52,376 nt of DNA, taken from NCBI GenBank assembly GCA_025966005.1, contig JAOPVV010000173.1, positions 1 to 52,376 of the forward strand, written 5' to 3'. Position numbers and translations under genes: made by a program. Under the pieces are notes generated by a model that was not told the DNA's origin, made no database searches, and saw nothing but the letters and a program-made list of their open reading frames with translations. The stretch comes from Frankiales bacterium (GTDB taxonomy: Bacteria; Actinomycetota; Actinomycetes; Mycobacteriales; SCTD01). Each line of letters starts with the position of its first letter. Position 1 is the first letter of the stretch. Below are positions 10,770 through 37,765 of the stretch, in pieces.

Positions 10770-10782
10770 GTTCTAGACACTA

Positions 10783-11102: not shown

Positions 11103-11114
11103 CGAGAGGTCGGG

Positions 11115-11351
11115 TCAGAGCTGCCAGTCGTCCATCAGGTCGCCCCACTTCTGCGGCGTGTGGGCAGGTTCGACGGTCGCTGGCGCCTCGGCCGCGCTCT
11201 GCGCCCCGAGGAGGGCCTGGGCCCTCGCCTGCCAGGCAGTGAGAAGTCCGCGGTGCTCGAGCCGGAAGGCCGCCCGCAGCTCCGCCGGGAGCGTCGCCTC
11301 GATGCGGTCGGCGCTCCACACCTCGTCGGGCCCTTGCCCTGCGTCCGCCAC
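11115..11351 (-). CDS. Small hypothetical protein (78 aa), weakly supported
   Basis: GTG 11351 is preceded by GGGAG. Acidic/helical sequence ending DLMDDWQL. No recognisable family. Confidence 0.35.
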   Translation of the reverse strand: MADAGQGPDEVWSADRIEATLPAELRAAFRLEHRGLLTAWQARAQALLGAQSAAEAPATVEPAHTPQKWGDLMDDWQL

Positions 11352-11415
11352 GTCGGCTCCCGCCCGGTCCTCGTCGACCCTCGCGTCCGGCGACCGACGT
11401 CGTTACGGTTCGGAC

Positions 11416-15926: not shown

Positions 15927-16565
15927 CTAGCTGGCGCGACGCAGGGAGTCGCGGGGGGCGGTCGCGCGGGTGCGGCCGATGTCGCGCGGGGCCAGCAGCG
16001 ACGTCCACAGGCCCACGGCTCCGCCGCCGAGCCACTCGGAGCCCGGGGCGGAGATGACGTCCGCCGTCAGGGCGAGCCGCAGCAGCACCTCGGCGAGCTG
16101 GCGCTCCGACATCGCGCCCGTGTGCACGGCGGACGTCCGTGTCAGGGCCGGGTGCAGGTACGTGGTGAGCAGCTCGAGCAGCGCGTCGAACTCCCGGGTG
16201 AAGAAGTCCAGGACCAGGCGCGGCTGCGACTCGACCAGGTCGTCCAGGGCCGGGAAGCGCTGGCGGTGGCTCTGCAGGGCGCCGAGGACAGCCGGCACGC
16301 GGTCGGAGTCGTCCGGCAGCGCCTCGACGGCCTGCTCGAGCTCGGCCTCGAGGGTCTGCAGCATCCGCTCCTCGAGGGCGACCAGCACGTCGTCCCGGCT
16401 CGCGAAGTACCGGTAGAGCGTCCCGCGGGACACGTTGGCCTCGTCCCCGATGTCTGTCATGGACAGCTTGCGCAGTCCACGGCGGGCGAGGACGCGGAGC
16501 GAGGCGTCGACGATGCGGTCGGAGGTGCTGAGGTCATTGCTCATGCAAGAGACGCTAGCAACCAC
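15927..16565 (-). CDS. TetR-family transcriptional regulator
   Basis: KLSMTDIGDEANVSRGTLYRYFASRDDVL. GTG 16565 is preceded by GAGGGA. The alternative start is ATG 16544. Confidence 0.85.
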   Translation of the reverse strand: MVASVSCMSNDLSTSDRIVDASLRVLARRGLRKLSMTDIGDEANVSRGTLYRYFASRDDVLVALEERMLQTLEAELEQAVEALPDDSDRVPAVLGALQSHRQRFPALDDLVESQPRLVLDFFTREFDALLELLTTYLHPALTRTSAVHTGAMSERQLAEVLLRLALTADVISAPGSEWLGGGAVGLWTSLLAPRDIGRTRATAPRDSLRRAS

Positions 16566-16640
16566 ACGTGTCCCTCGCGTGACGCGCAGATGGCGTCCTT
16601 GGTCACACCCCGTCCACAGGCTGGGGAGCTGCGACAGCTC

Positions 16641-21460: not shown

Positions 21461-22540
21461 TTGTTGATCGATCTGCATGCGCATCAGTTGACGTTGGACA
21501 TGTTCAACCAGCACGAGAAGTGGGGTCCGTTCTGGGAGGACGGGTCGTTGCGGATCGGTGACTGGAAGCTGGGGAGCAAGCGGGATGCTCCGCCGTTGGA
21601 GAAGTTCATCGAGGACCGCTGGGCGCCGGAGCCGCGGTTGGCGGCGATCGACGCCGCGGGGATCGACAAGATGGTGGTGTCGATGCCGCTGCACATGGTG
21701 GGTTATCACTACGAGGTGGAGTTCGCGAAGCGGTTCGCTACGACGGTGAACGACTCGCTCGCGGAGTACTGCTCGCACAACCCCGATCGGAACTACTTCT
21801 GGGCGCATGCGCCGCTGCAGGACCCGGTGGCGGCGGCGGCGGAGCTGGAGCGGGCGGTGACGCAGCTGGGTGCGAAGGGCCTGATGATGGGCGGGCGGAA
21901 CTTCGGTGGTCGTGAGGTGTACGACCCGGCGTTCCGGCCGTTGTGGGAGAAGGTCTCGGAGCTCGGCTGCATGATTTTCGTGCACGGCTACAACCAGTCG
22001 GTGACCTGGGGCGACAGGGCGATGGAGGACCCGTTCGACACGACGTCGATCGTGGGGATGAACTCCGACGAGACGCTGTTCTACTGGTACCTGACCAACG
22101 GTGGGGTGCTGGACGACTTCCCGGACCTGAAGATCCTGATCACTCACGGTGGTGGGTTCACGCCCTTCCAGCTGGGTCGGTTCGCGATGACGAACAAGAC
22201 GATGGCGCCGGACAGCAAGAACAAGAAGGACCTGCTGGAGTACAACTCGAACTTCTTCTACGACCTGGACATCCACTCGCCGTACATGCGGCGGGCGATC
22301 ATCGATGAGGTCGGGGTGTCGCAGGTGCTGTACGGCGACAACTTCTCCGGTTCGGACGTGCACGAGGGTGACCTGACCGATGGTCTGGGTCTGAGCACGG
22401 CTGACCAGGAGGCGATCCGGTTCCGCAACGCACTCGGTCTGATGCAGTTCGACGACCTGGACGCCACGCACGGCGTCGGTGACCCGTCGCTGGCGCAGGA
22501 GCCCGGTCAGGGCACCGACGCCGTCGTCAAGGCCGGCTGA
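21461..22540 (+). CDS. Amidohydrolase-2 (ACMSD-like metal-dependent hydrolase/decarboxylase) family protein
   Basis: LLIDLHAH metal-binding N-terminus, ILITHGGG, and a late YGDNFSGSD segment. TTG 21461 follows GAGGAGG. Codon usage is visibly different from the neighbours. Confidence 0.8.
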   Translation: MLIDLHAHQLTLDMFNQHEKWGPFWEDGSLRIGDWKLGSKRDAPPLEKFIEDRWAPEPRLAAIDAAGIDKMVVSMPLHMVGYHYEVEFAKRFATTVNDSLAEYCSHNPDRNYFWAHAPLQDPVAAAAELERAVTQLGAKGLMMGGRNFGGREVYDPAFRPLWEKVSELGCMIFVHGYNQSVTWGDRAMEDPFDTTSIVGMNSDETLFYWYLTNGGVLDDFPDLKILITHGGGFTPFQLGRFAMTNKTMAPDSKNKKDLLEYNSNFFYDLDIHSPYMRRAIIDEVGVSQVLYGDNFSGSDVHEGDLTDGLGLSTADQEAIRFRNALGLMQFDDLDATHGVGDPSLAQEPGQGTDAVVKAG

Positions 22541-22604
22541 CCGTCTGTCGCCGAGCCGCCTCCGGGCGCGTCGCGGTGGAACCTCCACGAAGTCCCACAG
22601 CAGC

Positions 22605-22624
22605 ACAGATGTGACCACTACTGT
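22605..22624. promoter_or_regulatory. Perfect ACAG-N12-CTGT element
   Basis: acagatgtgaccactactgt lies 64 nt upstream of the ATG at 22689, in a locally lower-GC spacer. Confidence 0.45.
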
Positions 22625-22688
22625 CCCTCGTGGTGCACCACTCACCCCTTCGTACCCCACACCACTGAAGCCCTTCGAAAGGGAACGC

Positions 22689-23933
22689 ATGAAGCAGCAC
22701 TCTGCACGCACCGCGACCGTCGCCATCGGCCTGAGCCTGGGCCTGCTGATCGCCGGCTGCGGGGACGACGCCGACGAGGAGGCCGCGGTCCAGGGCAGCG
22801 ACTCGGGCACCGAGCTCACCGGCGACCCGATCAAGATCTTCACCATCCAGCAGATCACCGTCACCAACCAGGACGCGACCGACGAGGCGGCGGACGCCGT
22901 GAAGGCGTCCATCAAGCGCATCAACGCCAATGGCGGGATCAACGGCCGCCCCGTCGAGGTCGAGGTCTGCGACGACAAGTTCGCGCCGGCCGAGGGTGCG
23001 AACTGCGCCCGCAAGGCGGTGGAGGCCGGTGCTGTCGCGCTCGTCGGGACGACCACCCAGCAGGGCGGGACCATCTACCCCGTCCTGGAGAAGGCGGGCC
23101 TGTGCAACCTGGCGCCCCAGCCGATCAACGCCACGGACTACTCCAGCAAGGTCTCCTACCCGATCATCTCGGCGGGCCCGGTGAACGTCGCGGGGTACGC
23201 GTACGCCCTCAAGGCGGCGGGAGCGTCGAAGATCAACGTGGCGTACATCGACGTCGCGACAGCGGCGGGCGTCGTCCCCTTCATCGACATGGGCGCCAAG
23301 AACGCCGGCGGCCTCACCGTCGGTCAGAAGATCCCGATCCCGATCACCAACACCGACATCGCGCCGATCGTCGCCGCGGCGACGCGTGACGCCGACGGTG
23401 TCGCCCTCGTGGTGGCTCCCGCGCAGCTGCAGAACTTCGCACGCAGCCTGGCGCAGCAGGGCAGCGACGTGAAGATCGCTGCGAGCGCCGCCGACAACAA
23501 GCTCATCGACACGATCGGCGACGGCGCCGACAACCTCGTCGTGGCCGCGGCCTTCGCGCCGATCCAGTCCGACGCGCCGGGCATGGTGCAGTTCCGTGAG
23601 GACATGGAGAAGGAGAACCCGGACGCCGAGCTCAACGCCTTCTCCTACAACGGCTGGATGGGCGTCCACGTCCTCAAGGAGGTCATCGAGTCCCAGAACC
23701 TCGAGACCGTCGACAGCACCACCGTCTGCGACGCGCTGAGCAAGGCCAAGGACATCGACCTGCTCGGCACCGCGCCGAAGTGGTCCACGGACAAGCCCTT
23801 CCCGATCAAGGGCCTGGACCGCATCTTCGCGCCGTACATCCAGGTGCAGAACGTCGTGGACGGAGAGCTCAGGGTCCTGGACGAGAAGTTCATCAACCCG
23901 ATCGACCCGACCGACACGGCCCCGGCCGTCTAG
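22689..23933 (+). CDS. Lipoprotein, LivJ-type ABC substrate-binding protein (orphan)
   Basis: Lipobox LLIAGCG after MKQHSARTATVAIGLSLG. INGRPVEVEVCDDKF and the overall pattern fit a type-I binding protein. Paralog of 37766..38998. Confidence 0.85.
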   Translation: MKQHSARTATVAIGLSLGLLIAGCGDDADEEAAVQGSDSGTELTGDPIKIFTIQQITVTNQDATDEAADAVKASIKRINANGGINGRPVEVEVCDDKFAPAEGANCARKAVEAGAVALVGTTTQQGGTIYPVLEKAGLCNLAPQPINATDYSSKVSYPIISAGPVNVAGYAYALKAAGASKINVAYIDVATAAGVVPFIDMGAKNAGGLTVGQKIPIPITNTDIAPIVAAATRDADGVALVVAPAQLQNFARSLAQQGSDVKIAASAADNKLIDTIGDGADNLVVAAAFAPIQSDAPGMVQFREDMEKENPDAELNAFSYNGWMGVHVLKEVIESQNLETVDSTTVCDALSKAKDIDLLGTAPKWSTDKPFPIKGLDRIFAPYIQVQNVVDGELRVLDEKFINPIDPTDTAPAV

Positions 23934-23948
23934 CTCGCCGTCAGCAGG

Positions 23949-23984
23949 GGAGGGGCCGGGTCGCGCACAGCGCCCGGCCCCTCC
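23949..23984 (+). terminator. GC-rich hairpin after the binding-protein gene
   Basis: ggaggggccggg (23949-23960) pairs with cccggcccctcc (23973-23984), with a 12-nt loop. No T-tract. Confidence 0.45.
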
Positions 23985-24030
23985 TGCATCGTCCCGAGGT
24001 CCGTCCGGTTCCGGCAGCAATACACGTGGA

Positions 24031-24050
24031 ACAGAGACCGTCCTAGTGTT
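24031..24050. promoter_or_regulatory. ACAG-N12-TGTT operator-like element
   Basis: ggaACAGagaccgtcctagTGTTac lies 40 nt upstream of the dioxygenase ATG at 24091. Confidence 0.45.
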
Positions 24051-24090
24051 ACGGTCGGGTCAGCAGCAGCAGACGCACACGAGGAGAACC

Positions 24091-25020
24091 ATGGACATCA
24101 TCGGACTCGGCTACCTGGGTCTCGAGTCAGCGCACGCCTCCGACTGGTCCGAGTATGGCCCGCAGGTGCTGGGCCTCGGTCTGGCCCCGTCGGAGGACGA
24201 GGGCACCGTGCTGCTGCGCATGGACGAGCGGCACCACCGGATCGCGGTGCGCCAGGGGGAGCGGGAGCGGCTGTCCTACCTGGGCTGGCACCTGCGCAAC
24301 CGGATCGCGTTCGAGGCCGCGCTCACGGTGCTCGAGCGCGAGGGCATCGAGTACACCCTGGCCGGCCAGGAGCTCATCGACGAGCGCGGCGTCCACGCGA
24401 TGGCCTGGTTCATCGGCCCCGACCGCCAGCGCCACGAGCTGTTCTACGCGCAGTCGTTCAACCCGCACTCGTTCCTGCCCGGCCGACCGCACGCGGGCTT
24501 CATGGCCGGTGACGGGGGTCTGGGCCACGTCGTGCTGGCGGTGCCCGAGTGGACCGACGAGCTGGAGCACTTCGTCACCGACGTGATGCAGTTCAAGTGG
24601 TACGGCTCCGGGATGAGCACGGGCCGGCTCCGCTTCTACTCGCCCAAGCTCAACCTGCGCTCGCACAGCATCGGCTACGCCACGATGCCGGGCCTGCTCG
24701 GCCTGCAGCACATCGGGATCGAGGTCAAGGAGCTCGACGACGTGGGCATCGCCTACGACCTCGTGCAGGAGCGCGGCATCCAGCTGATGGCCACGCTGGG
24801 CCGGCACGCGCAGGACCCGGTGATCTCCTTCTACTCCTTCACCCCGTCCGGCTTCCCGGTCGAGTACATCTGGGACGGCGTGGAGGAGTCGCACGAGCGC
24901 CCCTTCACCGAGCAGCGCCCGCAGAAGTTGAGCGTGTGGGGCCACAAGTTCCAGAACGCCCCGCAGCCGTCCACCCTGTACGCCGCCGAGGAGGCCACCC
25001 AGACCGCTCCGGCGGGCTGA
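24091..25020 (+). CDS. Type I extradiol (catechol-cleaving) dioxygenase, BphC/HsaC-like
   Basis: ATG 24091 follows GAGGAGAAC. Two-domain VOC layout. Candidate Fe(II) ligands lie in GLGHVVLAV, GLQHIGIEV and FPVEYIW. Confidence 0.9.
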   Translation: MDIIGLGYLGLESAHASDWSEYGPQVLGLGLAPSEDEGTVLLRMDERHHRIAVRQGERERLSYLGWHLRNRIAFEAALTVLEREGIEYTLAGQELIDERGVHAMAWFIGPDRQRHELFYAQSFNPHSFLPGRPHAGFMAGDGGLGHVVLAVPEWTDELEHFVTDVMQFKWYGSGMSTGRLRFYSPKLNLRSHSIGYATMPGLLGLQHIGIEVKELDDVGIAYDLVQERGIQLMATLGRHAQDPVISFYSFTPSGFPVEYIWDGVEESHERPFTEQRPQKLSVWGHKFQNAPQPSTLYAAEEATQTAPAG

Positions 25021-25115
25021 GCCGGTCGGCGCCCGCCGGCGTCCCGGTGCGCGGCGTCGGGCGGGCCACGGTGGCCAGGAGCGGTCCAGGACCGTGCGAC
25101 CCCGGGAAGGCGGAC

Positions 25116-26204
25116 ATGAGCTCAGCCCAGTTGGACGCGCTGGCGGTCGCCGTAAAGGCCGACGTGCCGGTGCTGCTCTGGGGCAGCCCGGGCACGGGCA
25201 AGACCTCCGCCGTGCTGTCCCTGGCGAACGCCCTGGGGTGGCCGGTGGAGGTGGTGGTCGGCGCCATCCGGGAGCCGTCGGACTTCGCCGGGCTGCCCGT
25301 CGTCTCGGACGGGGACGTGCACTTCGCCCCACCGCGATGGGCCCGCCGGCTGGCTGAGGCGCCGAACTCGCTGCTCCTGCTGGACGAGCTGACCACGGCG
25401 CCGCCCGCGGTCCAGGCGGCGATGCTGCGGGTGGTCCTGGAGCGGCACGTCGGTGACCTCGCGCTCCCCGCCGGCGTGCGCATCGTCGCGGCTGCGAACC
25501 CCCCGGACGAGGCGGCCGACGGCTGGGAGCTCTCGGCGCCGATGGCCAACCGCCTGGTCCACCTCGACTGGAGCGTCGACGCCGAGACGGTGGCGCGCGG
25601 CCTGGCGGTCGGTTTCCCGCCGCCCACCGCGGTCCTCTCCCGTCCCGACTCCGACGCGGGTCAGGGCCTCGTCGCCCGCTCGCTGGTCGGCGCCTTTCTG
25701 CAGGTGCGGCCCGCGCTGGTCCTCGACGTCCCCAAGACGTCGTCGGCCGCGGGCCGGGGCTGGCCGAGCCCGCGCAGCTGGGAGACGGCGGCCAGGCTCG
25801 TGGCGGCGGCAGATGCTGCCCGCGCCACGAGCGAGGTCCGGAGCCTGCTGGTCACGGGTGCCGTCGGTGAGGGCGCTGGGCTCGAGTTCCTTTCGTGGGC
25901 AGCCAACCTCGACCTCCCCGACCCGGCGGCGGTGCTCGCCGACCCGGACAGCTTCGAGCTGCCCCAGCGCGGTGACCGGGCCTACGCCGCCCTGGCCGCC
26001 GTGGCCGACTACGCCGTCAACCACGGCACGCCGGAACTGTGGGACGCCGCCTGGCGGGTCGTGGCGAGGGTCTCCAGCACGGCGCCTGACATCGCCGTCC
26101 TGGTGGCTCGCATGCTGGCGACTCGACGTCCAGCCGGCGCGCGGATCCCGTCCGAGGTGCAGGCGCTGGACCCCGTCCTGCGCGCGGCCGGCCTGCTGCC
26201 GTGA
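25116..26204 (+). CDS. MoxR-class AAA+ ATPase (AAA_5 type)
   Basis: Walker A LLWGSPGTGKTS, Walker B LLLLDELTTAPPAVQAAMLRVVLER, sensor-like RIVAAANPPDE. ATG 25116 follows GGAAGG. The track ORF extension from 24549 was rejected. Confidence 0.85.
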   Translation: MSSAQLDALAVAVKADVPVLLWGSPGTGKTSAVLSLANALGWPVEVVVGAIREPSDFAGLPVVSDGDVHFAPPRWARRLAEAPNSLLLLDELTTAPPAVQAAMLRVVLERHVGDLALPAGVRIVAAANPPDEAADGWELSAPMANRLVHLDWSVDAETVARGLAVGFPPPTAVLSRPDSDAGQGLVARSLVGAFLQVRPALVLDVPKTSSAAGRGWPSPRSWETAARLVAAADAARATSEVRSLLVTGAVGEGAGLEFLSWAANLDLPDPAAVLADPDSFELPQRGDRAYAALAAVADYAVNHGTPELWDAAWRVVARVSSTAPDIAVLVARMLATRRPAGARIPSEVQALDPVLRAAGLLP

Positions 26205-27478
26205 CGTCGGCGGCCCTGGGAGTGCGCCGCTCCGGGGTGCAGGACCTGCCCGCGCCCCTGCGGGAGGCCTGGGCCGCCGCCCGGGTGCGCGCCGCGCACA
26301 CCGCGCCCTACCTGACGACCGCCGTCCTGGCGCTGCAACCGGTGGTGGTCGACGGGCTCGAGGAGGCCGGCTGCTCGGCGGCCGCACTGCGGGCCTTCCC
26401 GGTCGACACCGGGTGGCGGGTCCACCTCGACCCGCACTGGCTGGCGGTGACGCCGCCCGCCGGCATCGCCTTCTGGCTGGTGCACCAGGTCGGGCACCTG
26501 CTGCGCCAGCACGCCGACCGCTTCGGCGCGGCCTGCCCACAGCCCGCGGCCGTTCCTGGGCAGCCGCGGACCCCCGAGCAGCAGCGCTGGAACGTGTCCG
26601 CGGACTGCGAGGTCAACGACGACGTGCCGGGCGACGCCAGGGCGTCGGACGCCGTGCTGCCGTCCTCCCTGGGGCTGGCGGACGGCCAGCCGGCAGAGGT
26701 CTACTGGGCGGCCCTGGCCCACCGGACACCCACGTCGGTGCAGGCGACTGTCGACTGCGGCAGCGGTACCGACGGTGTCGCGCGCGGCTGGGACTCCGGC
26801 GAGCCGGGGCTCACCGAGCCGGAGGCCCGCCAGGTCCGTCGCGAGACCGCGCGGACGGTCGCGGCCCGCGGCCGCGAGGGCGGCGACGTCCCGGAGGCCT
26901 GGCGACGCTGGGCCGAGCAGGTCCTGGAGCCCGTCGTGGACTGGCGGCGCGAGCTGTCCGCCGCGCTGCGCCTGGGGGTGGCCGGCGTCGTGGGACGGGT
27001 CGACTACAGCTACGTGCGTCCGTCCCGCCGGGCCGGTGCGGTCCCGGGGGTGGTGCTGCCCTCCCTGCGCCAGCCCGTGCCCCAGGTGACGGTGCTGCTC
27101 GACACGTCGCAGAGCATGCTCGGTGAGCCGCTGAGCCGAGCGGTCGCGGAGGTGGGCGGTGTCCTGCGGGCGGTCGGCGTCGCCCGGCACTCGCTGCGGG
27201 TCCTGTGCTGCGACAGCACGGCCTACGACAGCGCGCGGGTGCTGGACGCACGAGAGGTCCAGGTGGTCGGCGGCGGCGGGACCGACCTGCGTGCCGGCCT
27301 GGCCGCCGCCGCCTCGGCACGGCCGCGGCCCGACCTCGTCGTCGTGCTCACCGACGGCGGGACGGACTGGCCGCAGGAACGACCCCGCCATGGCGCCGTG
27401 GTGGTCGGGCTGCTCGACAGCCGAAGGCGGCCGCCCGACTGGGCGAGGACCGTCGACATCCCCTGGGGAGGTGCATGA
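26201..27478 (+). CDS. VWA-domain protein with an N-terminal putative metallopeptidase-like domain (DUF2201-type architecture)
   Basis: GTG 26201 overlaps the ATPase stop (GTGA). The N-terminal domain carries LVHQVGHLLRQH, i.e. HQxxH where HExxH would be expected. The C-terminal VWA domain has MIDAS-like VLLDTSQSM, GGGGTDL and VVVLTDGG. Confidence 0.8.
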   Translation: MTSAALGVRRSGVQDLPAPLREAWAAARVRAAHTAPYLTTAVLALQPVVVDGLEEAGCSAAALRAFPVDTGWRVHLDPHWLAVTPPAGIAFWLVHQVGHLLRQHADRFGAACPQPAAVPGQPRTPEQQRWNVSADCEVNDDVPGDARASDAVLPSSLGLADGQPAEVYWAALAHRTPTSVQATVDCGSGTDGVARGWDSGEPGLTEPEARQVRRETARTVAARGREGGDVPEAWRRWAEQVLEPVVDWRRELSAALRLGVAGVVGRVDYSYVRPSRRAGAVPGVVLPSLRQPVPQVTVLLDTSQSMLGEPLSRAVAEVGGVLRAVGVARHSLRVLCCDSTAYDSARVLDAREVQVVGGGGTDLRAGLAAAASARPRPDLVVVLTDGGTDWPQERPRHGAVVVGLLDSRRRPPDWARTVDIPWGGA

Positions 27479-27819
27479 CCGTGTCCTGGCACGCAGGATC
27501 CACGTCGATCATGGGACTGATGTTCGGCGGCCCGGCGCCCCCGGAGTGGGCGCGCGTCGGCATCTCCGGCATCGACGCGAGGCTCTGGCAGCTGCTCGGG
27601 GTCCCGCCCGCTGAGGCGGCCCGGCTGGCCAAGGCCGGCCAGGACCCCGTCGTCGTCGTCGAGCAGTGGTGGGCCGCCGGCGTGCCGCTGGACGAGGTGG
27701 CGGCCTGGCTCGGCGCCGGGCTCTCGGCCCAGGAGGCCGTCGAGCAGCGCGCCGCGGGCGTCGACGTCGAGCAGGCCGCCACGCTGCGGGCGCTGCGGGG
27801 CCTGGGCCACACGGACTAG
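27475..27819 (+). CDS. Small Trp-rich tandem-repeat protein, unknown function (114 aa)
   Basis: ATG 27475 overlaps the VWA stop (ATGA). High GC3. Three to four ~22-aa repeats of the form W-x3-G-[VI]-x3-[ED]-x-A-x-[LW]-x2-[AL]-G: RLWQLLGVPPAEAARLAKAG, QWWAAGVPLDEVAAWLGAG, EQRAAGVDVEQAATLRALRG. Confidence 0.6.
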   Translation: MTVSWHAGSTSIMGLMFGGPAPPEWARVGISGIDARLWQLLGVPPAEAARLAKAGQDPVVVVEQWWAAGVPLDEVAAWLGAGLSAQEAVEQRAAGVDVEQAATLRALRGLGHTD

Positions 27820-28991
27820 GTCCGAGCGCCGCCGTACGTCAGCTCCACCGAGGGGAAGCCGAGCAACCCGGCCGGCCACGGCAGCACCGGCGTGGTCCCC
27901 GGCTGCAGCGCGAAGTCGGGGACCTGGGTCAGCCACTCCTCGAGCACCAGGCGGAGCTCGGCCCGGGCCAGGTGCGAACCGAGGCACCGGTGGATGCCCC
28001 CGCCGAAGCCCCAGTGCGCCTCGTCGCGGTCGAGCTGCACGGCGGTGCCGTCCTCGTACCGGTCGGGGTCGCGGTTGGCGGCTGCCCACACCATGACCAC
28101 CCGGGTTCCCGCAGGGAGGTCCCGTCCCTCGAGCACGGTGTCCTGCGTCGTGACCCTCGGCGTGAAGGTGGCGACCGGGTTGAGCCGGACGAGCTCCTCC
28201 ACGAACCCCGGGACGAGCGTGAGGTCCTGGGCCAGCCGACCGCGCAGGTCGGCGTCCCGGGCCAGCAGCTCGAAGGCGAAGCCGAGCGTCGCCGTGACCG
28301 TGTCGAGTCCGGCGAGCACCATGAGGAAGCCGAGTCCGAGCAGCTCCTCCTGGCTCATGGCCTCGGCGGAGGTGTCGTTCACGAGGACGGTCAGCAGGTC
28401 CTCGCCCGGCTGACCCCGGCGCTGCTCGATCTTCTCGCCGAGGTAGGTGAACAGCTCCAGTGCCTCGGCCTGCTGCCCCTCACTGGCGCCGGCAGGGCCG
28501 GCGGCCGCGAGGACGGCGTCCTTCCAGCGGACCAGTCGCTCGGTGTCGCTGAGCGGCAGGCCGAGCAGCGTGAGGAACACCTGGCTCGGGAACGGGACGG
28601 CCAGGTCGCGGACGACGTCGCAGCGACCCGCCTCGGCCAGCGGAGTGATGAGGGCGCGCAGCTGCTCGCGCAGGCTCTCGTACATGCGCCCGACGACCAC
28701 CGGGCTGAAGAACGGCGCCAGGAGCTTGCGGTACCGCATGTGCTCGGGCGGGTCGAACGCGATCGGGACCATCGGCACGGGGCTGCCCACGACGCCGAAG
28801 GCCAGCCGCGAGGAGTAGGTCGCCGGGTCGTGCAGCACCACGTCGACGGCCTTGTTGCCCACGACGAAGACAGCCCCGTCGACGTCCACGAGCGGTCCCT
28901 GGTCGAGCAGCGCCTGCCAGGCGGCCTCCCGGTCCGAGGCGACCGGGAGGTCGGCGAGGGACAGCGCGGGCCGGGCGGGTGTCGTGGTCAA
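27816..28991 (-). CDS. Cytochrome P450
   Basis: Heme loop FGGGIHRCLG, ExxR in VEELVR, I-helix-like VLAGLDTVT. TTG 28991 follows GGAGGA. Its stop overlaps the convergent stop of 27475..27819 (CTAG). Confidence 0.9.
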   Translation of the reverse strand: MTTTPARPALSLADLPVASDREAAWQALLDQGPLVDVDGAVFVVGNKAVDVVLHDPATYSSRLAFGVVGSPVPMVPIAFDPPEHMRYRKLLAPFFSPVVVGRMYESLREQLRALITPLAEAGRCDVVRDLAVPFPSQVFLTLLGLPLSDTERLVRWKDAVLAAAGPAGASEGQQAEALELFTYLGEKIEQRRGQPGEDLLTVLVNDTSAEAMSQEELLGLGFLMVLAGLDTVTATLGFAFELLARDADLRGRLAQDLTLVPGFVEELVRLNPVATFTPRVTTQDTVLEGRDLPAGTRVVMVWAAANRDPDRYEDGTAVQLDRDEAHWGFGGGIHRCLGSHLARAELRLVLEEWLTQVPDFALQPGTTPVLPWPAGLLGFPSVELTYGGART

Positions 28992-29011
28992 GGGTCCTCC
29001 AGAGTGGTGGG

Positions 29012-29797
29012 TTACAGGCCGGCTGGCTTGTTGTTGTAGCGGGGCAGGTGCAGGCCGCCGTCGACGTGGATGACCTCACCCGTCACGTAGGAGGCGTCGT
29101 CGCTGGCGAGGAACACGGCGACGGGGGCGATGTCGGGCTCCGGGTAGCCGACCCGGCCCAGCGGCTTGATGCTCGCCGACATCTCGACGAAGCCCGGGTC
29201 CTGCCTGGCGTACTCCTCGAAGACCGAGCCGGCCGCGGCGGGGGCGATCGCGTTGACCGTGATGCCATAGCGAGCCCACTCGACCGCCGCCGAGCGGGTC
29301 AGCCCCAGGATCGCCTGCTTGCTGGCGATGTAGTCGGCCCGCAGCCAGGCGGCGGCCTCGGCGTCGATGGAGTACATGTTCACCACCCGTCCCCGGCCCT
29401 GCTCGCGCATCGTCGGGAACGCCGCCTGCATGGCCCACCAGGTGGCCTTGAGCCCGGAGCGCATGAGGCTCTCGAGCATCTCGTCGGTCTTGTCCTCGAG
29501 CAGCACGTTCGGCGAGAGCTTGATGGCGTTGTTGACCAGGACGTCGATGCGGCCGTGGCCCTCGACGGCACGGGCGACAGCGGCCACCACGGACGCCTTG
29601 TCGGTGACGTCCGTGTGCACGAACTCACCTGGGGTGCCCAGCTCGGCCAGCTCGTCGGCCGTCGTCCTGCCGGCCTCGGCATCGACGTCGGCGACGAGGA
29701 CGGTGGCGCCCTCGCGGGCGAACAGCCGGGAGATGCCCCGGCCGATGCCCTTGCCGCCTCCGGTGACGAGGGCGACGCGGCCGGTCAGCCGGCTCAT
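29012..29797 (-). CDS. Short-chain dehydrogenase/reductase (SDR)
   Basis: VTGGGKGIGRG, VNNA, YIASKQAI, tail IHVDGGLHLPRYNNKPAGL. ATG 29797 follows AAGGAG. Close paralog of 14958..15767. Confidence 0.9.
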   Translation of the reverse strand: MSRLTGRVALVTGGGKGIGRGISRLFAREGATVLVADVDAEAGRTTADELAELGTPGEFVHTDVTDKASVVAAVARAVEGHGRIDVLVNNAIKLSPNVLLEDKTDEMLESLMRSGLKATWWAMQAAFPTMREQGRGRVVNMYSIDAEAAAWLRADYIASKQAILGLTRSAAVEWARYGITVNAIAPAAAGSVFEEYARQDPGFVEMSASIKPLGRVGYPEPDIAPVAVFLASDDASYVTGEVIHVDGGLHLPRYNNKPAGL

Positions 29798-29827
29798 GGG
29801 ACTCCTTCTGCTGGGGTGACTGGGGGT

Positions 29828-30544
29828 TCAGACGGCGGCGGCGGGGACGGCGAGGTAGGCGCTCTCCACCTCGTGCCACTGGGAACGCAGCTCGGCGGTC
29901 GTCCCGGACAGGACCACCTTGCCGTGGACGAGCAGGTAGCCGCGGTCGGCGATCTCCAGCACGCTCGAGACGTGCTGCTCGACGAGCAGCACGGCCAGCC
30001 CGGTGTCGGCCGCGGCTCGGACCGCCTTGAACAGGCGCTCCACCGCGAGCGGCGCGAGCCCGAGCGAGAGCTCGTCGGCCAGCAGGATGCGCGGTCGGCG
30101 CGCCAGCGCCCGGGCCAGGGCGAGCATCTGCTGCTGACCGCCCGACAGCAGCCCGGCCTTGCGGCCCAGGTGCGGCTCGAGCTCGGGGAAGACCGCCAGC
30201 GCGCGGTCGACGTCACCCTTGCCGAGCCGCAGGTTGTCGACGACCGTCATCTTCATGAGGACCGAGCGCTCCTCGGTCAGCAGCGACAGGCCCCGCTGGG
30301 CCCGGCGGTGCAGTGGTGCGCCGGTCGCGTCGCCGTGCAGGGCGATGCTGCCCTCGATGACGGGCAGCTCACCGGCGAGCGTCAGCACGGTGGTCGTCTT
30401 GCCGGCCCCGTTCGGCCCGAGCAGGACGACGACCTCACCCGGCTGCACGTGCAGGTCCAGGCCGCGGACGACGGGCGTCTTGCCGTAGCCGGCGCTCAGG
30501 CCGGTGCAGGAGATGGCCGGCTCGGTCGTGGTCGTGGTGGTCAC
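29828..30544 (-). CDS. ABC transporter ATP-binding protein, LivF type
   Basis: GPNGAGKTTTV, LSGGQQQMLALARAL, ILLADELSLGLAP. GTG 30544 overlaps the upstream stop (GTGA). Confidence 0.9.
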   Translation of the reverse strand: MTTTTTTEPAISCTGLSAGYGKTPVVRGLDLHVQPGEVVVLLGPNGAGKTTTVLTLAGELPVIEGSIALHGDATGAPLHRRAQRGLSLLTEERSVLMKMTVVDNLRLGKGDVDRALAVFPELEPHLGRKAGLLSGGQQQMLALARALARRPRILLADELSLGLAPLAVERLFKAVRAAADTGLAVLLVEQHVSSVLEIADRGYLLVHGKVVLSGTTAELRSQWHEVESAYLAVPAAAV

Positions 30545-33282
30545 GTGGTGGCTCCGCTGGTGGTGGTGGCGACCGGGTCGCGGCGGGTGCTGGCGGGGAC
30601 GGGGTCCTCGGAATCCTTCTGCTGGCCGAGGTAGGCCGCGACGACGGCGGGGTCGGAGCTGACCTGCGCGGGCGAGCCGTCGGCGATCTTCTTGCCGAAG
30701 TCGAGGACGACGACGCGGTCGCAGATGTCCATGACGAGCCCCATGTCGTGCTCGACGAGCAGGATCGCGGTGCCCCACTCGTCGGCGAGGCGGCGCAGGA
30801 GCTGCCCGAGCTCGCGCGACTCGGTCTCGTCGAGGCCGGCGGCCGGCTCGTCGAGCAGGAGCACCGACGGGTGCCGGGCCACCGAGCGCGCGATCGCCAC
30901 CAGGCGGCGCTTGCCGTACGACAGCTCTGTCGGGGTCTTGAGCAGGTCGTCAGCGAGCTGAAAGTCGACGACGGCCCGGAGGGCGGCGGGAGACAGCTGG
31001 GGCTTGCTGGGCCGGAACAGGTCCGTGACGTAGGAGCGCAGGTCGCGCTCCTCCGCGGCGACGCACAGGTTGTCCTGCACCGTGAGGTCCTCGAACAGCT
31101 CCAGGTTCTGGAAGCTGCGGCCGATGCCGAGCTCGGCCCGGCGACGGGCGGACATCCCCGTGATGTCCTGGTCGTCAAGGGCGATCCGGCCGGTGGTCGG
31201 CTTGGTGAAGCCGGTGACGACGTCGATCAGGGTCGTCTTGCCGGCTCCGTTCGGTCCGATCAGTCCGACGATCTCACCCGGTCGGGCGTGCAGCGCGACG
31301 TCGTCGAGAGCGACCACGCCGCCGAAGCGCATGCCCAGCCCCTCGACGCGCAGCGTGCGTGGCGCGGCCCGCTCGATCACGACGTCGTCCTGCGAGTCCA
31401 CCGCCGGCTGCTCCATCTGGCGGCGGTTGAGCCTGCCCAGCAGGGCCTGCTTCATCAGCATCTGGCGGAAGACGGCCCCGTTGGGGTCGTTGATGACCAT
31501 CAGGATCAGGGCGATGCCGGTGATGAGGGTCGCCCACTGACCGAGCTCGATGGCCTGCTCCACGACGTACGGGATCAGGCCGCCGACTACCAGCAGGCCG
31601 CCGAACAGCGCGCCGCCGATGAAGCCGATGCCGCCGAGGAAGGTGAGCACCACGGCGTTGATCGAGGCGAAGACGTCGTACTGGGCGAAGTCGACGTTCG
31701 GGAAGCGGTAGGCCAGCAGGACGCCGCCGGCCGCGGCGATCCCGGCGCCGAGGGCGAAGGCGTACAGCTTGGCGCCGATGATGCTGATGCCGAGCGACGC
31801 CGCGGCGCGCTCGTTGGCGCGGGTCGCGAGCAGGCGGCGGCCGGAGCGGCCGCGCCTGAGGTTGGAGACGGCGAACGCGAAGGCCGCGAACACCACGAGG
31901 GCGACGGCGCTGTAGCGCTGCGGGTGCACGACCGAGTCGATGCTCCAGCCGAACAGGGCCGGGGGCTCGATGATCGTCCCCTCGTAGCCGCCGGTGTAGT
32001 CCTTGTTGTTGAACAGCAGCGCCTGGAGCGCCACGGCGAGCCCGAGCGTCGCGATGGCGAGGTTCACGCCGCGGGTGCGCAGGGCGGGCAGGGCGAACAC
32101 GAGCCCGAAGGGGATGGCGGCCAGGACGCCCATCGGCAGGGCGAGGATGAACGGCAGACCCAGCAGGTCGCCGGCGATCCGGGCCGAGACGAACGCCCCG
32201 ACCCCGGCGAGCCCGTACTGGGCCAGCGAGACCTGGCCGGCGTAGCCGGTGACGACCACGACGGACAGCGCGATCAGGCCGACGGCGAAGGTGAGCACCA
32301 GCGCGGCCAGCAGCCCTTCCGAGCCGGCGCCGATCACGATGCCGGCGAGGACCAGTCCGGCCAGCACGGTCCAGCGCCGACGGCGCACCGGAGCCACCAG
32401 TGGCAGCCGGTCGTTGAGGAACCCCCGTAGCGGCAGCGCCTGACCCCGGACGATCAGCAGGCCGATGATGACCAGGAACGGCGCGCTCTCGGCCCACCCG
32501 GTCACGGTCACGTAGCGCGTCATCTCGGACTGCACGATGCCGATGACCGCACCGCCGACGGCGGTGAGGGCGAAGGAGGAGAAGCCACCCACCATGGCGC
32601 TGGCCAGGACGGGGACGATGAGCAACGCCAGGGTGCCCGGTGCGAAGCCGGTGATCGGCACGATGAGGATGCCGGCGAGCGCCGCGAGCGCGCCGCCGAG
32701 GGCCCAGTTGGCCGTCGCGATCACGTCGGGGGAGACGCCGAGCGCCGCGGCGCTGCGCTGGTTCTCCGAGACGGCGGCGGTGGAGCGGCCGAAGTCCGTC
32801 GAGCGGTACACCACGGTCAGGGCGGCCGTGAGGACGACGGCGATGCCGATGATCCACAGGCGGTCCTCGCCGACGCTCACGTCGCCGAACAGGGTCCGGT
32901 TCTTGGCCGGCAGGAAGCTGTCGACGAACTGGAACTCCGAGCCGTACCGGATCTGGGCGGCGGAGGAGACCACAGCGAGGATGCCGAGCGTGGCCACGAG
33001 GCGGGCCAGGGCCGAGGCCGTGCGCAGCGGACGCATGATCAGCAGCGAGATCCCGACGCCGACCAGGGCCATGACCAGGATCGGCACGACCACCGCCACC
33101 ACCTTCGGGGCGTCGTTGTCGAGCAGCTCCATGTAGAGCGCGGCGCCGAGCAGGGCCATCGCGCCGTGCCCGAAGTTCAGCACTCCGGATCCGCGGTAGA
33201 CGACGACGAGGCCTTGCGCCGCGACGGCGTAGACCGCGCCGACGGCCAGGCCGAGTATGGCGAACTTCAGGACTTCTTCCAC
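30541..33282 (-). CDS. Triple-fusion LivH-LivM-LivG ABC permease/ATPase (913 aa)
   Basis: N-terminus MEEVLKFAILGLAVGAVYAVAAQGLVVVYRGSGVLNFGHGA is LivH-like. The middle is LivM-like (GQVSLAQYGLAGVGAF). The C-terminus is LivG-like (GPNGAGKTTLID, LSYGKRRLVAIARS, LLLDEPAAGLD). GTG 33282 follows GGAGGT. Confidence 0.9.
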   Translation of the reverse strand: MEEVLKFAILGLAVGAVYAVAAQGLVVVYRGSGVLNFGHGAMALLGAALYMELLDNDAPKVVAVVVPILVMALVGVGISLLIMRPLRTASALARLVATLGILAVVSSAAQIRYGSEFQFVDSFLPAKNRTLFGDVSVGEDRLWIIGIAVVLTAALTVVYRSTDFGRSTAAVSENQRSAAALGVSPDVIATANWALGGALAALAGILIVPITGFAPGTLALLIVPVLASAMVGGFSSFALTAVGGAVIGIVQSEMTRYVTVTGWAESAPFLVIIGLLIVRGQALPLRGFLNDRLPLVAPVRRRRWTVLAGLVLAGIVIGAGSEGLLAALVLTFAVGLIALSVVVVTGYAGQVSLAQYGLAGVGAFVSARIAGDLLGLPFILALPMGVLAAIPFGLVFALPALRTRGVNLAIATLGLAVALQALLFNNKDYTGGYEGTIIEPPALFGWSIDSVVHPQRYSAVALVVFAAFAFAVSNLRRGRSGRRLLATRANERAAASLGISIIGAKLYAFALGAGIAAAGGVLLAYRFPNVDFAQYDVFASINAVVLTFLGGIGFIGGALFGGLLVVGGLIPYVVEQAIELGQWATLITGIALILMVINDPNGAVFRQMLMKQALLGRLNRRQMEQPAVDSQDDVVIERAAPRTLRVEGLGMRFGGVVALDDVALHARPGEIVGLIGPNGAGKTTLIDVVTGFTKPTTGRIALDDQDITGMSARRRAELGIGRSFQNLELFEDLTVQDNLCVAAEERDLRSYVTDLFRPSKPQLSPAALRAVVDFQLADDLLKTPTELSYGKRRLVAIARSVARHPSVLLLDEPAAGLDETESRELGQLLRRLADEWGTAILLVEHDMGLVMDICDRVVVLDFGKKIADGSPAQVSSDPAVVAAYLGQQKDSEDPVPASTRRDPVATTTSGATT

Positions 33283-33383
33283 GCTGGACGCACCTCCGAG
33301 TCGGGGCAGCAGGGTCGTGTCTGGACGCGCGACGTGGCGGTCCCTGTTCGGGTCAAGATCGTCCGCTGAGCGGGACTAGTGTG

Positions 33384-33403: not shown

Positions 33404-33473
33404 TCTAGTCTTTCCGCGGACTTCTTCGTGGCCGGTGAGGCCGGCGACGTGGCAGGTCAGGGTTGCGTCTTGA

Positions 33474-33493
33474 ACAGATAGCGTCTCAACCGT
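33474..33493. promoter_or_regulatory. ACAGATAG-N6-AACCGT element, sharing both flanks with the 19680/19741 repeat
   Basis: acagatagCGTCTCaaccgt versus acagatagTGCAGCaaccgt. Lies 71 nt upstream of the ATG at 33565. Confidence 0.5.
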
Positions 33494-33564
33494 ACACTCC
33501 GAGGACCGAAGACACCACGGCTGCTCGTCCCGGTCGCGGTCACGACACACACGAGGAGCCGGCC

Positions 33565-37587: not shown

Positions 37588-37649
37588 GGCGAGCTCCCTG
37601 GGTACGCGGATGGCCGTGGTCACGGCTGACATGACGGTAGGCAATCAAG

Positions 37650-37669
37650 ACAGTTGCTGTCAATGCTGT
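37650..37669. promoter_or_regulatory. Perfect ACAG-N12-CTGT(TC) element
   Basis: acagttgctgtcaatgctgt followed by tc. Lies 62 nt upstream of the dioxygenase start at 37587. Confidence 0.5.
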
Positions 37670-37713
37670 TCGAGGCTAACCGGCCCTGGTGCCGGGCGTT
37701 GCACTCGTGCGGC

Positions 37714-37733
37714 ACAGGTAGTACAACTCCACT
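37714..37733. promoter_or_regulatory. ACAGGTAGT-type half element
   Basis: acaggtagtacaactccact resembles the left half of ACAGATAGTGCAGC. Lies 32 nt upstream of the ATG at 37766. Confidence 0.3.
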
Positions 37734-37765
37734 CACACTTGTCTCATCCCCCGAAGGGCTCCTCC

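What the first reader, a model, noticed from the sequence alone, without database searches (positions are those of the whole stretch)
24031..27819. Extradiol dioxygenase co-transcribed with a MoxR AAA+ / VWA-peptidase-like / repeat-protein trio: candidate dedicated metalloenzyme maturation or remodelling system, or an embedded conflict module
A hairpin at 23949..23984 and an operator-like element at 24031 mark the start of a new unit. That unit contains the extradiol dioxygenase (24091..25020). After a 95-nt gap with no obvious terminator come a MoxR-class AAA+ ATPase, a VWA protein and a 114-aa repeat protein, locked together by GTGA and ATGA overlaps. The unit ends stop-to-stop against a convergent P450 gene. 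Nothing else in the 52-kb catabolic island is non-metabolic. Known MoxR/VWA pairs (NorQ/NorD, CbbQ/CbbO, CoxD/CoxE, RavA/ViaA) act as ATP-driven maturases or activases of metalloenzymes. Fe(II) extradiol dioxygenases are well known to be inactivated by oxidation or loss of the metal. A MoxR/VWA activase dedicated to an extradiol dioxygenase, or to the adjacent P450s, has not been described to my knowledge. The alternative is that vWA-MoxR modules have also been proposed as NTP-dependent conflict systems, in which case this would be a hitch-hiking module.
Basis: partly seen in the sequence, partly recalled or inferred. Interest (0 to 1): 0.8.

Follow-up and report, generated by a model that had tools for sequence, protein, structure and literature searches.

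The report
Self-contained ATPase module beside a dioxygenase
A three-gene ATPase/adaptor/repeat-protein module of unknown function sits directly behind an iron dioxygenase gene, but comparison with other genomes shows it is a widespread self-contained module inserted once into this degradation cluster and later lost from sister clusters, so it is probably not a helper the dioxygenase needs.

Summary
GTGA and ATGA overlaps link the trio. It ends stop-on-stop against a P450.

- The ATPase-VWA pair is common in Actinomycetota (at least 556 relatives in species-representative genomes) and also occurs on plasmids and in phage protein families.
- Its closest relatives (29 loci) carry a longer version of the same repeat protein. 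They have no dioxygenase or P450 neighbour and no recurrent neighbour of any kind.
- Only one clade (100/100 bootstrap; five genomes, all with a truncated third gene) sits behind the dioxygenase, always in the same orthologous cluster.
- Sister clusters with equally close dioxygenases (61-73% identity) lack the trio. One keeps a frameshifted stump of the ATPase gene.

Where kept, the trio is under purifying selection. In two genomes it starts 3-16 nt after the dioxygenase gene, so co-option is not excluded. The 'peptidase' motif is HQxxH, which is probably inactive.

Verdict: an uncharacterised self-contained three-gene module, inserted once. Interest is moderate.

The parts
23949..23984 (+). 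GC-rich hairpin (perfect 12-bp stem, no U tract) after the substrate-binding-protein gene. It is terminator-like and marks the upstream boundary of the dioxygenase unit.
   Evidence: 12/12 complementary arms, and z = -3.9 for the surrounding fold; the GGCCGGG...CCCGGCC arms are conserved in L001 and L002.
24029..24052 (+). Operator-like imperfect inverted repeat GAACA-N12-TGTTAC. It overlaps a -10-like TAGTGT (24044-24049) and lies 39 nt upstream of the dioxygenase start codon. A promoter/operator role is inferred, not shown.
   Evidence: unique in the window, 0 matches expected in shuffles; it lies in the block GTGGAACA...TAGTGTTACG conserved in L001 and L002; the strict sigma-70 scan found nothing.
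24091..25020 (+). Type I Fe(II) extradiol dioxygenase of BphC/HsaC type, 309 aa. It is the conserved 5' neighbour of the module in this lineage only.
   Evidence: 100% identical to a protein named 2,3-dihydroxybiphenyl 1,2-dioxygenase from a Frankiales bacterium MAG.
25029..25066 (+). Imperfect GC-rich hairpin just after the dioxygenase stop codon. It could be a weak terminator, attenuator or RNA-stabilising element. It is degenerate in the window and strong in close relatives.
   Evidence: repeat I9, arms 25030-25041 and 25052-25063; window z = +0.66, L001 z = -4.5, L002 z = -2.1; some compensatory pairs.
25116..26204 (+). AAA+ ATPase of the AAA_5/MoxR-like group, 362 aa, with all catalytic motifs intact.
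   Evidence: full-length match to phrog_1297, E = 1.5e-50. NCBI MCW2614479.1.
26201..27478 (+). Protein of 425 aa with an N-terminal zincin-like domain (DUF2201_N, motif HQVGH instead of HExxH) and a C-terminal VWA domain (DUF2201) with intact MIDAS. Its start overlaps the ATPase stop (GTGA).
   Evidence: AlphaFold model, pLDDT 81.6; only the VWA half resembles a solved fold (the Ro60 vWA domain); phrog_1314, E = 2e-30.
27475..27819 (+). Helical-repeat protein of 114 aa (about 13-residue units, x-A-G-[VIL]-x3-E-A-x2-[WL]). It is a truncated version of the 230-320-aa third gene of the module and keeps only the best-conserved C-terminal repeat block. Its start overlaps the VWA stop (ATGA).
   Evidence: alignment A1; 320 representative proteins at E <= 0.001. 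AlphaFold model; no significant structural match; conservation profile; overlap confirmed.
27816..28991 (-). Convergent cytochrome P450 gene whose stop shares CTAG with the repeat-protein stop. It is a boundary gene and not part of the module, because the adjacency is absent in L004 and L026.

Best explanation
The trio is one copy of a widespread, self-contained actinobacterial three-gene module. It consists of a MoxR-like AAA+ ATPase, a zincin-like/VWA adaptor protein, and a helical-repeat partner protein.

An ancestor of a small group of Actinomycetota acquired one copy at the 3' end of the Amidohydro_2-BphC operon of a catabolic cluster, just before the promoter of the next operon. The group includes this Frankiales MAG, a Mycobacterium MAG and Nocardia jinanensis. 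During or after that event the third gene was shortened to its C-terminal repeat block. The module has since been inherited with the cluster, and deleted in some lineages.

Inferred mechanism, by analogy with studied MoxR-VWA pairs:
- The ATPase forms a ring.
- The VWA domain binds an acidic residue of a client protein through its MIDAS metal site.
- The zincin-like domain has lost its catalytic Glu (HQxxH) in this clade, so it probably holds a peptide segment without cutting it.
- ATP hydrolysis then remodels or releases the client.
- The repeat protein is the module's own conserved partner, either an adaptor or the client itself.

The dioxygenase is a neighbour by descent. It is not a demonstrated client and it does not need the module.
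For: Shown by tool results:

1. The pair is near-universal. The ATPase lies directly upstream of the VWA gene in 78 of 80 genome loci. At least 556 relatives exist in species-representative genomes.
2. The third gene is homologous across loci. The 114-aa protein aligns to the C-terminal third of the 251-320-aa downstream genes, and tblastn finds it in 29 of the 80 loci.
3. No neighbour is conserved around 29 long-form loci. None has a dioxygenase or P450 homologue within 10 kb.
4. Some copies lie next to an integrase (L006) or between transposases (L008). Relatives occur on 61 plasmid records, including Rhodococcus pREL1, and in the phage families phrog_1297 and phrog_1314.
5. The dioxygenase-linked copies are one clade with 100/100 bootstrap, always in the same orthologous cluster.
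6. Orthologous clusters exist without the trio: L161 and L162. In L162 the 271-nt gap encodes MSGPALEALVLAVRADVAVLLWKSPGTGKTSAV, then a frameshift, then VEVVVGSIREPSDFAGLPVVGEGDV. That is the 5' stump of the ATPase gene.
7. In the dioxygenase tree, trio-bearing loci are interspersed with trio-less ones.
8. A conserved TTGAAC-17-TAnAnT promoter-like motif directly follows the trio in L004, follows the stump in L162, and lies at window 33471-33500. The module therefore occupies an operon end.
9. A second BphC paralogue in the window has no such module.
10. The ATPase and MIDAS motifs are intact. HQxxH is found through the whole repeat-protein clade and HExxH in the sister clade.

The mechanism itself is inferred from established knowledge of MoxR-VWA pairs (PMC3893208, PMC7159879).
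Against: - Where retained, the three genes show dN/dS of 0.17-0.18 in the closest pair. That is similar to the dioxygenase (0.14) and the P450 (0.11).
- They have stayed directly behind the dioxygenase down to 65% ATPase identity and 60% dioxygenase identity.
- In L004 and L026 the ATPase gene starts 16 and 3 nt after the dioxygenase stop. Expression must there be tied to the catabolic operon, which is odd for a module with an unrelated role.
- The truncated third gene is specific to this clade and could mark a change of client.
- No experiment or structure exists for any member of the DUF2201 family, so the client is unknown.
Confidence: 0.55

Rival explanations
1. Co-opted activase. In this one lineage the module was recruited as an ATP-driven remodeller. 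It would reactivate the adjacent Fe(II) extradiol dioxygenase, or another enzyme of the pathway, after oxidation or metal loss. The shortened repeat protein would reflect the change of client.
For: - Immediate adjacency to the dioxygenase in all five carriers, despite rearrangements on both sides of the four-gene block.
- Gaps of 3 and 16 nt in L026 and L004, which imply co-transcription.
- Purifying selection on all three genes.
- A clade-specific truncation of the third gene that keeps its most conserved block.
- Studied MoxR-VWA pairs do activate metalloenzymes (PMC3893208).
Against: - There was a single origin, so the adjacency counts as one observation.
- The trio was lost while the dioxygenase and cluster were kept: L162 with a scar, L161, and L160.
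- A terminator-like hairpin separates the dioxygenase from the trio in L001 and L002, with a weak one in the window.
- The second dioxygenase in the window has no module.
- From my own knowledge, the established reactivation route for these enzymes is a XylT-type ferredoxin, not an AAA+ machine.
- No paper in the searched library links MoxR proteins with extradiol dioxygenase activation.
Confidence: 0.2
2. Conflict or mobile-element module. The trio would be an NTP-dependent defence or mobile-element maintenance system that merely resides in the catabolic island. The repeat protein would act as sensor.
For: - Relatives occur on plasmids and in phage protein families.
- Some chromosomal copies are flanked by an integrase or by transposases.
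- Genomic contexts are highly variable.
- The sister clade pairs the ATPase-VWA genes with LRR and ankyrin repeat proteins.
- The repeat domain is also fused to Ser/Thr kinases, with or without a UvrD helicase, in other proteins.
- vWA-MoxR conflict systems are frequent in actinobacteria (PMC7159879).
Against: - No PADLOC model matches the VWA or repeat protein, and the ATPase has only weak partial hits.
- The defining third components of the described systems (VMAP, iSTAND, FtsH, beta-propeller) are absent.
- The vWA protein carries no effector domain.
- No toxin-like or nuclease domain is present in the trio.
- tblastn finds no match in 50,697 phage genomes.
- Most flanks are ordinary chromosomal genes.
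Confidence: 0.15
3. Decaying passenger. The trio would be a non-functional remnant on its way to deletion.
For: - The third gene is truncated.
- The catalytic Glu of the zincin motif is lost.
- One sister lineage shows a deletion scar.
Against: - All three ORFs are intact in five genomes, with conserved overlaps.
- All ATPase and MIDAS motifs are conserved.
- dN/dS is 0.17-0.18.
- HQxxH is shared by the whole long-form clade, so it is an old, stable state rather than recent decay.
Confidence: 0.05

Closest known systems
MoxR-VWA metalloenzyme activase pairs (NorQ/NorD, CbbQ/CbbO, CoxD/CoxE, RavA/ViaA)
   Same: - A MoxR-group AAA+ ATPase is encoded directly before, and translationally coupled to, a VWA protein with an intact MIDAS site.
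- In this window the pair sits next to a metalloenzyme gene.
   Different: - The VWA protein carries an N-terminal zincin-like DUF2201_N domain. VWA_CoxE scores only 20.9 bits, below its 26.4 cut-off.
- A third, helical-repeat protein belongs to the module.
- Linkage to the enzyme is confined to one clade and has been lost by deletion in sister clusters. In the named systems, co-occurrence with the target enzyme is the rule (PMC3893208).
AAA_5 + DUF2201_N/DUF2201 gene pairs (Pfam PF13203/PF09967; phage families phrog_1297/phrog_1314; 'ATPase AAA' + 'VWA-like domain-containing protein' on Rhodococcus plasmid pREL1)
   Same: Membership by profile is clear for both proteins. The gene order and start/stop overlap are the same.
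   Different: - The window belongs to a sub-clade with HQxxH instead of HExxH and with the W/AG helical-repeat third gene.
- It carries a truncated form of that third gene.
- It lies inside a catabolic operon.
- I found no functional study of this family.
vWA-MoxR ternary conflict systems of Kaur, Burroughs, Iyer and Aravind 2020 (VMAP, iSTAND, FtsH and beta-propeller types)
   Same: - Three-component logic: a MoxR-vWA core plus a third protein.
- Abundance in actinobacteria.
- Variability of the third component between clades.
   Different: - None of the four defining third components is present.
- The vWA domain is at the C-terminal end with no effector after it.
- bpMoxR scores 24.4 bits, below its 27 cut-off.
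- Descriptions of the systems are in PMC7159879.
XylT-type [2Fe-2S] ferredoxins that reactivate extradiol dioxygenases (from my own knowledge; not tested here)
   Different: - They are a small redox protein that reduces the iron. No ATPase, no VWA protein and no remodelling are involved.
- I did not search the window for a XylT-type ferredoxin. A Fer4_15-type ferredoxin gene lies after the AMP-binding gene in the orthologous clusters.

Membership tests
MoxR-like / AAA_5 AAA+ ATPases | Profile match above the curated cut-off, plus intact Walker A, Walker B, sensor-1 Asn and Arg finger | tested here: met
   AAA_5 scores 37.4 bits (cut-off 22) and AAA_3 scores 30.3 bits (cut-off 27). GSPGTGKTS, LLLLDELTT, AAANP and PMANRL are conserved across the 83 aligned sequences.
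MoxR-like / AAA_5 AAA+ ATPases | Adjacent gene for a VWA protein | tested here: met
   There is a GTGA overlap in the window. The ATPase lies upstream of the VWA gene in 78 of 80 loci.
VWA domain with functional MIDAS | DxSxS ... T ... D metal-site motif | tested here: met
   DTSQS at residue 301, GGGGTD at 357 and LTDG at 383. These are near-invariant in 83 sequences.
DUF2201_N zincin-like metallopeptidase | Profile match | tested here: met
   PF13203 scores 81.3 bits against a cut-off of 23.2.
DUF2201_N zincin-like metallopeptidase | Catalytic HExxH motif (Glu as general base) | tested here: not met
   The window has HQVGH. HQxxH occurs in all members of the repeat-protein clade and HExxH in the sister clade. 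Catalysis is therefore doubtful, although peptide or metal binding may persist (inference).
Dedicated metalloenzyme activase (NorQD / CbbQO / CoxDE type) | Conserved co-occurrence with the target enzyme gene across independent lineages | tested here: not met
   Only one monophyletic clade is linked. None of 29 long-form loci has a dioxygenase or P450. Close dioxygenase orthologues occur without the trio and one shows a deletion scar.
Dedicated metalloenzyme activase (NorQD / CbbQO / CoxDE type) | Enzyme activity depends on the pair | not testable with these tools
   This needs deletion and activity assays.
vWA-MoxR ternary conflict systems (Kaur et al. 2020) | Third component is VMAP, iSTAND, FtsH-type ATPase or a beta-propeller fused to the vWA protein | tested here: not met
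   The third protein is a 114-aa helical repeat with no Pfam match. Definitions are in PMC7159879.
vWA-MoxR ternary conflict systems (Kaur et al. 2020) | Variable effector domains C-terminal to the vWA domain | tested here: not met
   The VWA domain (residues 297-420) ends the 425-aa protein.
Catalogued anti-phage defence systems (PADLOC-DB 2.0) | Profile match of the component proteins | tested here: not met
   There is no hit for the VWA or repeat proteins. The ATPase has only weak partial hits (IetA, E = 2e-4).
Type I extradiol dioxygenase (BphC/HsaC group) - the neighbour gene | Two-domain VOC fold with the 2-His-1-carboxylate iron ligands | tested here: met
   BphC_D1 and Glyoxalase domains match. 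H146, H207 and E258 are invariant; their assignment as the iron ligands is from my knowledge of the family. Scores are below the equivalog cut-offs for BphC (216 vs 366) and HsaC (173 vs 450), so the substrate is unknown.

The most novel reading that the evidence does not exclude
In this lineage a widespread ATPase/VWA/repeat module was captured by a catabolic operon and re-targeted. Its dead-peptidase/VWA adaptor and shortened repeat protein would now hold the neighbouring Fe(II) extradiol dioxygenase, or another oxygenase of the pathway, so that the ATPase can reset it after oxidative inactivation. That would be the first ATP-driven activase for this enzyme class, and a natural example of a remodelling module changing client.
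Probability: 0.15. Interest if true: 0.75.

Novelty: new variant of a known kind. Interest (0 to 1): 0.4.

Why it matters
MoxR-VWA pairs are among the most common unexplained ATPase systems in bacteria, and each solved case has revealed a dedicated remodelling job. This finding matters in three ways.

1. It shows that gene adjacency alone would have misled. The association with the dioxygenase is a single historical insertion that has been lost several times, not a recurrent partnership.

2. It defines a three-gene module for which I found no prior description. The parts are an AAA_5 ATPase, a zincin-like/VWA protein with a probably inactive HQxxH site, and a new roughly 13-residue helical-repeat protein. 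A sister clade uses LRR and ankyrin proteins instead. The module is present in hundreds of actinobacterial species, on plasmids, and in phage protein families.

3. It supplies natural comparisons for experiments. These are orthologous catabolic clusters with the module (Nocardia jinanensis), without it (Actinocorallia herbida), and with a deletion scar. Together they could settle whether the module helps the pathway at all.

Tried and rejected
- **P450 as client: rejected.** The convergent P450 is adjacent only in the window, L001 and L002, not in L004 or L026.
- **Known defence system: rejected for now.** PADLOC gave nothing for the VWA or repeat proteins.
- **Membership in the Kaur et al. 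ternary systems: rejected on architecture**.
- **Solved-structure relatives.**
  - A profile search of PDB sequences with the VWA alignment gave 0 hits.
  - Foldseek of the VWA model matched only the generic vWA fold of Ro60, E = 3e-3.
  - Foldseek of the repeat-protein model gave nothing below E = 0.1, the best hits being designed helical toroids.
  - The ATPase's best solved relative is a short stretch of midasin.
- **Literature.** 'DUF2201' is held by 3 unrelated papers, 'COG3864' by 0, 'VWA-like domain-containing protein' by 2 unrelated papers, and 'extradiol dioxygenase' + 'MoxR' by 1 paper (PMC8195603, not opened).
- **Metagenome scans.** The first scan with the single dioxygenase found nothing. 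The repeat with an alignment gave 70 loci, but nearly all close orthologues were on contigs too short to judge.
- **Promoter and terminator scans.** Consensus scans of 23700-28200 found nothing on either strand, which says little in a 72% G+C genome.
- **Hairpin in the 95-nt gap.** It is not better than shuffles in the window itself, so co-transcription can be neither affirmed nor denied from sequence.
- **Repeat-protein homologue search.** The word-indexed search found only 4 proteins. The exhaustive profile search was needed.
- **Window contig in the gene-position index.** The look-up of the 100%-identical dioxygenase failed. The exact-sequence look-up later identified the NCBI proteins.

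Full report
**1. What is in the sequence**

The window is a complete 52,376-bp contig of a Frankiales bacterium metagenome-assembled genome. The dioxygenase is 100% identical to an NCBI protein from a contig of that length. The ATPase, VWA protein and P450 are NCBI MCW2614479.1, MCW2614480.1 and MCW2614482.1. G+C is 72%.

- A branched-chain-type substrate-binding protein gene ends at 23933.
- A BphC/HsaC-like extradiol dioxygenase lies at 24091-25020.
- An AAA_5/AAA_3 (MoxR-like) ATPase lies at 25116-26204.
- A DUF2201_N + DUF2201 protein (zincin-like domain plus VWA domain) lies at 26201-27478.
- A 114-aa protein with no family match lies at 27475-27819.
- A convergent P450 lies at 27816-28991.

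GC3 of 0.92-0.97 shows that the three trio ORFs are coding. The GTGA and ATGA overlaps and the shared CTAG of the convergent stops are confirmed.

The hairpin at 23949-23984 has a perfect 12-bp stem, and the surrounding fold has z = -3.9. The operator-like element is GAACA-N12-TGTTAC at 24029-24052. It is unique in the window with 0 matches expected. It sits in a block conserved in two related contigs, where the upstream hairpin is conserved too.

**2. The 95-nt gap**

The gap is not featureless. A GC-rich imperfect hairpin follows the dioxygenase stop codon (arms 25030-25041 and 25052-25063). In the window it folds no better than shuffled sequence (z = +0.66). At the same place L001 has a 20-bp stem (z = -4.5) and L002 a weaker one (z = -2.1). 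Hairpins without a U tract are common at gene ends in high-G+C actinobacteria (my knowledge), and their terminating efficiency cannot be read from sequence.

In the Mycobacterium MAG (L004) and Nocardia jinanensis (L026) the gap is only 16 and 3 nt. Co-transcription there is close to certain.

**3. Protein features**

The ATPase has all its working motifs: Walker A, Walker B, sensor Asn and Arg finger. The VWA domain has a complete MIDAS site.

The zincin motif is HQVGH. The Glu-to-Gln change is shared by every member of the clade that carries the repeat protein. The sister clade keeps HExxH. Replacing the general-base Glu inactivates zincin peptidases, often without abolishing substrate binding (established enzymology, my knowledge). 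I therefore read this domain as a peptide-holding rather than a peptide-cutting domain. This is inference.

No solved structure is related by sequence. The AlphaFold model (pLDDT 81.6) resembles solved folds only in its VWA half.

The 114-aa protein is predicted as eight short helices with a period of about 13 residues. It has no significant structural relative.

**4. The trio is a module in its own right**

Context look-ups of VWA homologues gave two pictures. The three nearest looked up (70%, 70% and 61% identity) have the dioxygenase-ATPase-VWA-small protein order. Three at 53-57% identity have ATPase-VWA followed by a gene of 251-320 aa. In those there is no dioxygenase, and the contexts are unrelated to each other:
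- L003 has housekeeping neighbours.
- L006 has an integrase nearby.
- L008 is flanked by transposases.

The alignment shows that the 114-aa protein equals the C-terminal block of those longer genes, with 33 invariant positions.

A scan of one genome per species found at least 556 relatives, and I kept the best 80. Results from those 80 loci:
- The ATPase is directly upstream in 78.
- The repeat-protein gene is directly downstream in 29.
- The dioxygenase is adjacent in one, Nocardia jinanensis (L026).
- P450 homologues occur within 10 kb only in three loci of the sister clade.

Flanking genes of 29 long-form loci fall into 123 Pfam families, none present in more than 5 of 111 genes.

The sister clade (Streptomyces, Actinoplanes, Actinomadura and others) instead has conserved upstream genes for an LRR protein and an ankyrin protein. 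Across the family, then, the ATPase-VWA pair travels with a repeat-scaffold protein.

Both core proteins match phage protein families over their full length: phrog_1297 at E = 1.5e-50 and phrog_1314 at E = 2e-30. Relatives at 38-46% identity lie on 61 plasmid records, including Rhodococcus erythropolis pREL1. tblastn found none in phage genomes.

An exhaustive profile search found only 320 representative proteins with the repeat domain. Most are 230-270 aa. Some are fused to Ser/Thr kinases, with or without a UvrD helicase.

**5. How the module came to sit beside the dioxygenase**

In a tree of concatenated ATPase + VWA sequences, the five dioxygenase-linked loci form one clade with 100/100 neighbour-joining bootstrap support. 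These are the window, L001, L002, L004 and L026. All five have the short third gene.

All five lie in the same orthologous cluster: SDR, aldehyde dehydrogenase, TetR, FAA hydrolase, Amidohydro_2, BphC, the trio, a gene of about 100 aa, acyl-CoA ligase, ferredoxin, thiolase. The window lineage has local rearrangements.

A promoter-like TTGAAC-17-TAnAnT motif directly follows the trio in L004. It is also found at window 33471-33500, before the gene of about 100 aa. The module therefore occupies the 3' end of the Amidohydro_2-BphC operon, a place where an insertion does least harm.

**6. The reciprocal test**

Starting from the dioxygenase, close orthologues were looked up.
- **L162 (73% identity)** has Amidohydro_2-BphC-[271 nt]-101-aa gene-ligase-ferredoxin-thiolase. 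This is the L004 order minus the trio. The 271 nt encode the first 37 codons of the ATPase gene, then a frameshift, then 25 further codons, followed by the TTGAAC-17-TATACT motif. That is a deletion scar. The trio was there and was lost, while the dioxygenase and the cluster stayed.
- **L161 (Actinocorallia herbida, 61%)** has the same cluster with a 40-nt gap and no trio.
- **L160 (70%)** has another context and no trio.

In the dioxygenase tree the trio-bearing genes are interspersed with trio-less ones, which implies repeated loss. More distant dioxygenase relatives (at most 53% identity) with enough flanking DNA never have the trio. The window's own second BphC-type gene (36667-37644) has none either.

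**7. What argues for a local role all the same**

In the closest pair of carriers, dN/dS is 0.17 (ATPase), 0.17 (VWA) and 0.18 (repeat protein). The dioxygenase gives 0.14 and the P450 0.11. dS is partly saturated, so only the comparison between genes is meaningful.

The genes have kept their overlaps and motifs down to 65% ATPase identity. In two genomes they must be transcribed with the dioxygenase. The part of the third gene that was kept is its best-conserved block. This would fit either retention of the core-binding half after a change of client, or simple tolerance of a truncation.

**8. Conclusion**

- The alternative of a resident module is closer to the evidence. It is not one of the described vWA-MoxR conflict systems.
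- My best explanation (0.55) is a self-contained ATP-driven remodelling module whose conserved partner is its own repeat protein, inserted once at an operon end and sporadically deleted.
- Co-option for the pathway in this lineage remains possible (0.20), as does a conflict or mobile-element role (0.15).
- The family itself is uncharacterised in everything I could search.

Noticed in passing
L162:1835-2104: This is a deletion scar. The 271-nt spacer between the dioxygenase and the 101-aa gene encodes a frameshifted 5' stump of the ATPase gene (Walker A still readable). The promoter-like motif TTGAAC-17-TATACT follows it.
   Followed up: yes
window 36667-37644 (minus strand): A second BphC-type extradiol dioxygenase lies in the same island. 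It is next to another substrate-binding protein, a thiolase and an acyl-CoA dehydrogenase, and has no ATPase/VWA module beside it.
   Followed up: partly
window 33471-33500; L004:9598-9626: A sigma-A-like promoter motif (TTGAAC, 17 nt, TACACT or TATATT) is conserved upstream of the roughly 100-aa gene that precedes the acyl-CoA ligase. In the window the inverted P450-SDR-ABC transporter block (27816-33375) separates it from the trio.
   Followed up: partly
L040:7127-8815, L044:5798-6937 and about 20-29 other loci of the Streptomyces/Actinoplanes clade: In the sister clade, the ATPase-VWA pair keeps HExxH. It is preceded by conserved genes for an LRR protein (about 380 aa) and an ankyrin-repeat protein (about 560 aa). 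This looks like a four-gene unit, and I found no description of it.
   Followed up: partly
proteins P0199, P0210, P0213, P0232: The roughly 13-residue W/AG helical repeat of the third gene also occurs between a Ser/Thr kinase domain and, in two cases, a C-terminal UvrD-type helicase. It has no Pfam model. Only 320 representative proteins match it in 1.84 billion.
   Followed up: partly
L163 (Rhodococcus erythropolis plasmid pREL1, record 162170-165880): On this plasmid the ATPase-VWA pair is followed by overlapping genes of 64 and 395 aa of unknown function and then another AAA ATPase, near a MazF toxin gene. Thirty-three Rhodococcus plasmid records carry a relative.
   Followed up: no
L008:4790-6397 and 10542-11639; L006:3020-3940: One long-form trio is bracketed by two rve-family transposase genes. 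Another lies 3 kb from a tyrosine integrase. This hints that the module can move.
   Followed up: no
window 1-7190, 22479-23933, 29828-33375, 37568-38998: The island holds three branched-chain-type substrate-binding protein genes and two sets of ABC permease/ATPase genes, including a fused permease-ATPase gene of about 910 aa. It also holds three TetR-family regulators (9511-10772, 15927-16640). The substrate of the island is unknown. The dioxygenase is below the equivalog cut-offs for both BphC and HsaC.
   Followed up: no
window 27475-27819: The exact 114-aa product is not in the protein collection, although its neighbours are (MCW2614479.1, MCW2614480.1, MCW2614482.1). The deposited annotation probably uses another start codon for this gene.
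   Followed up: partly
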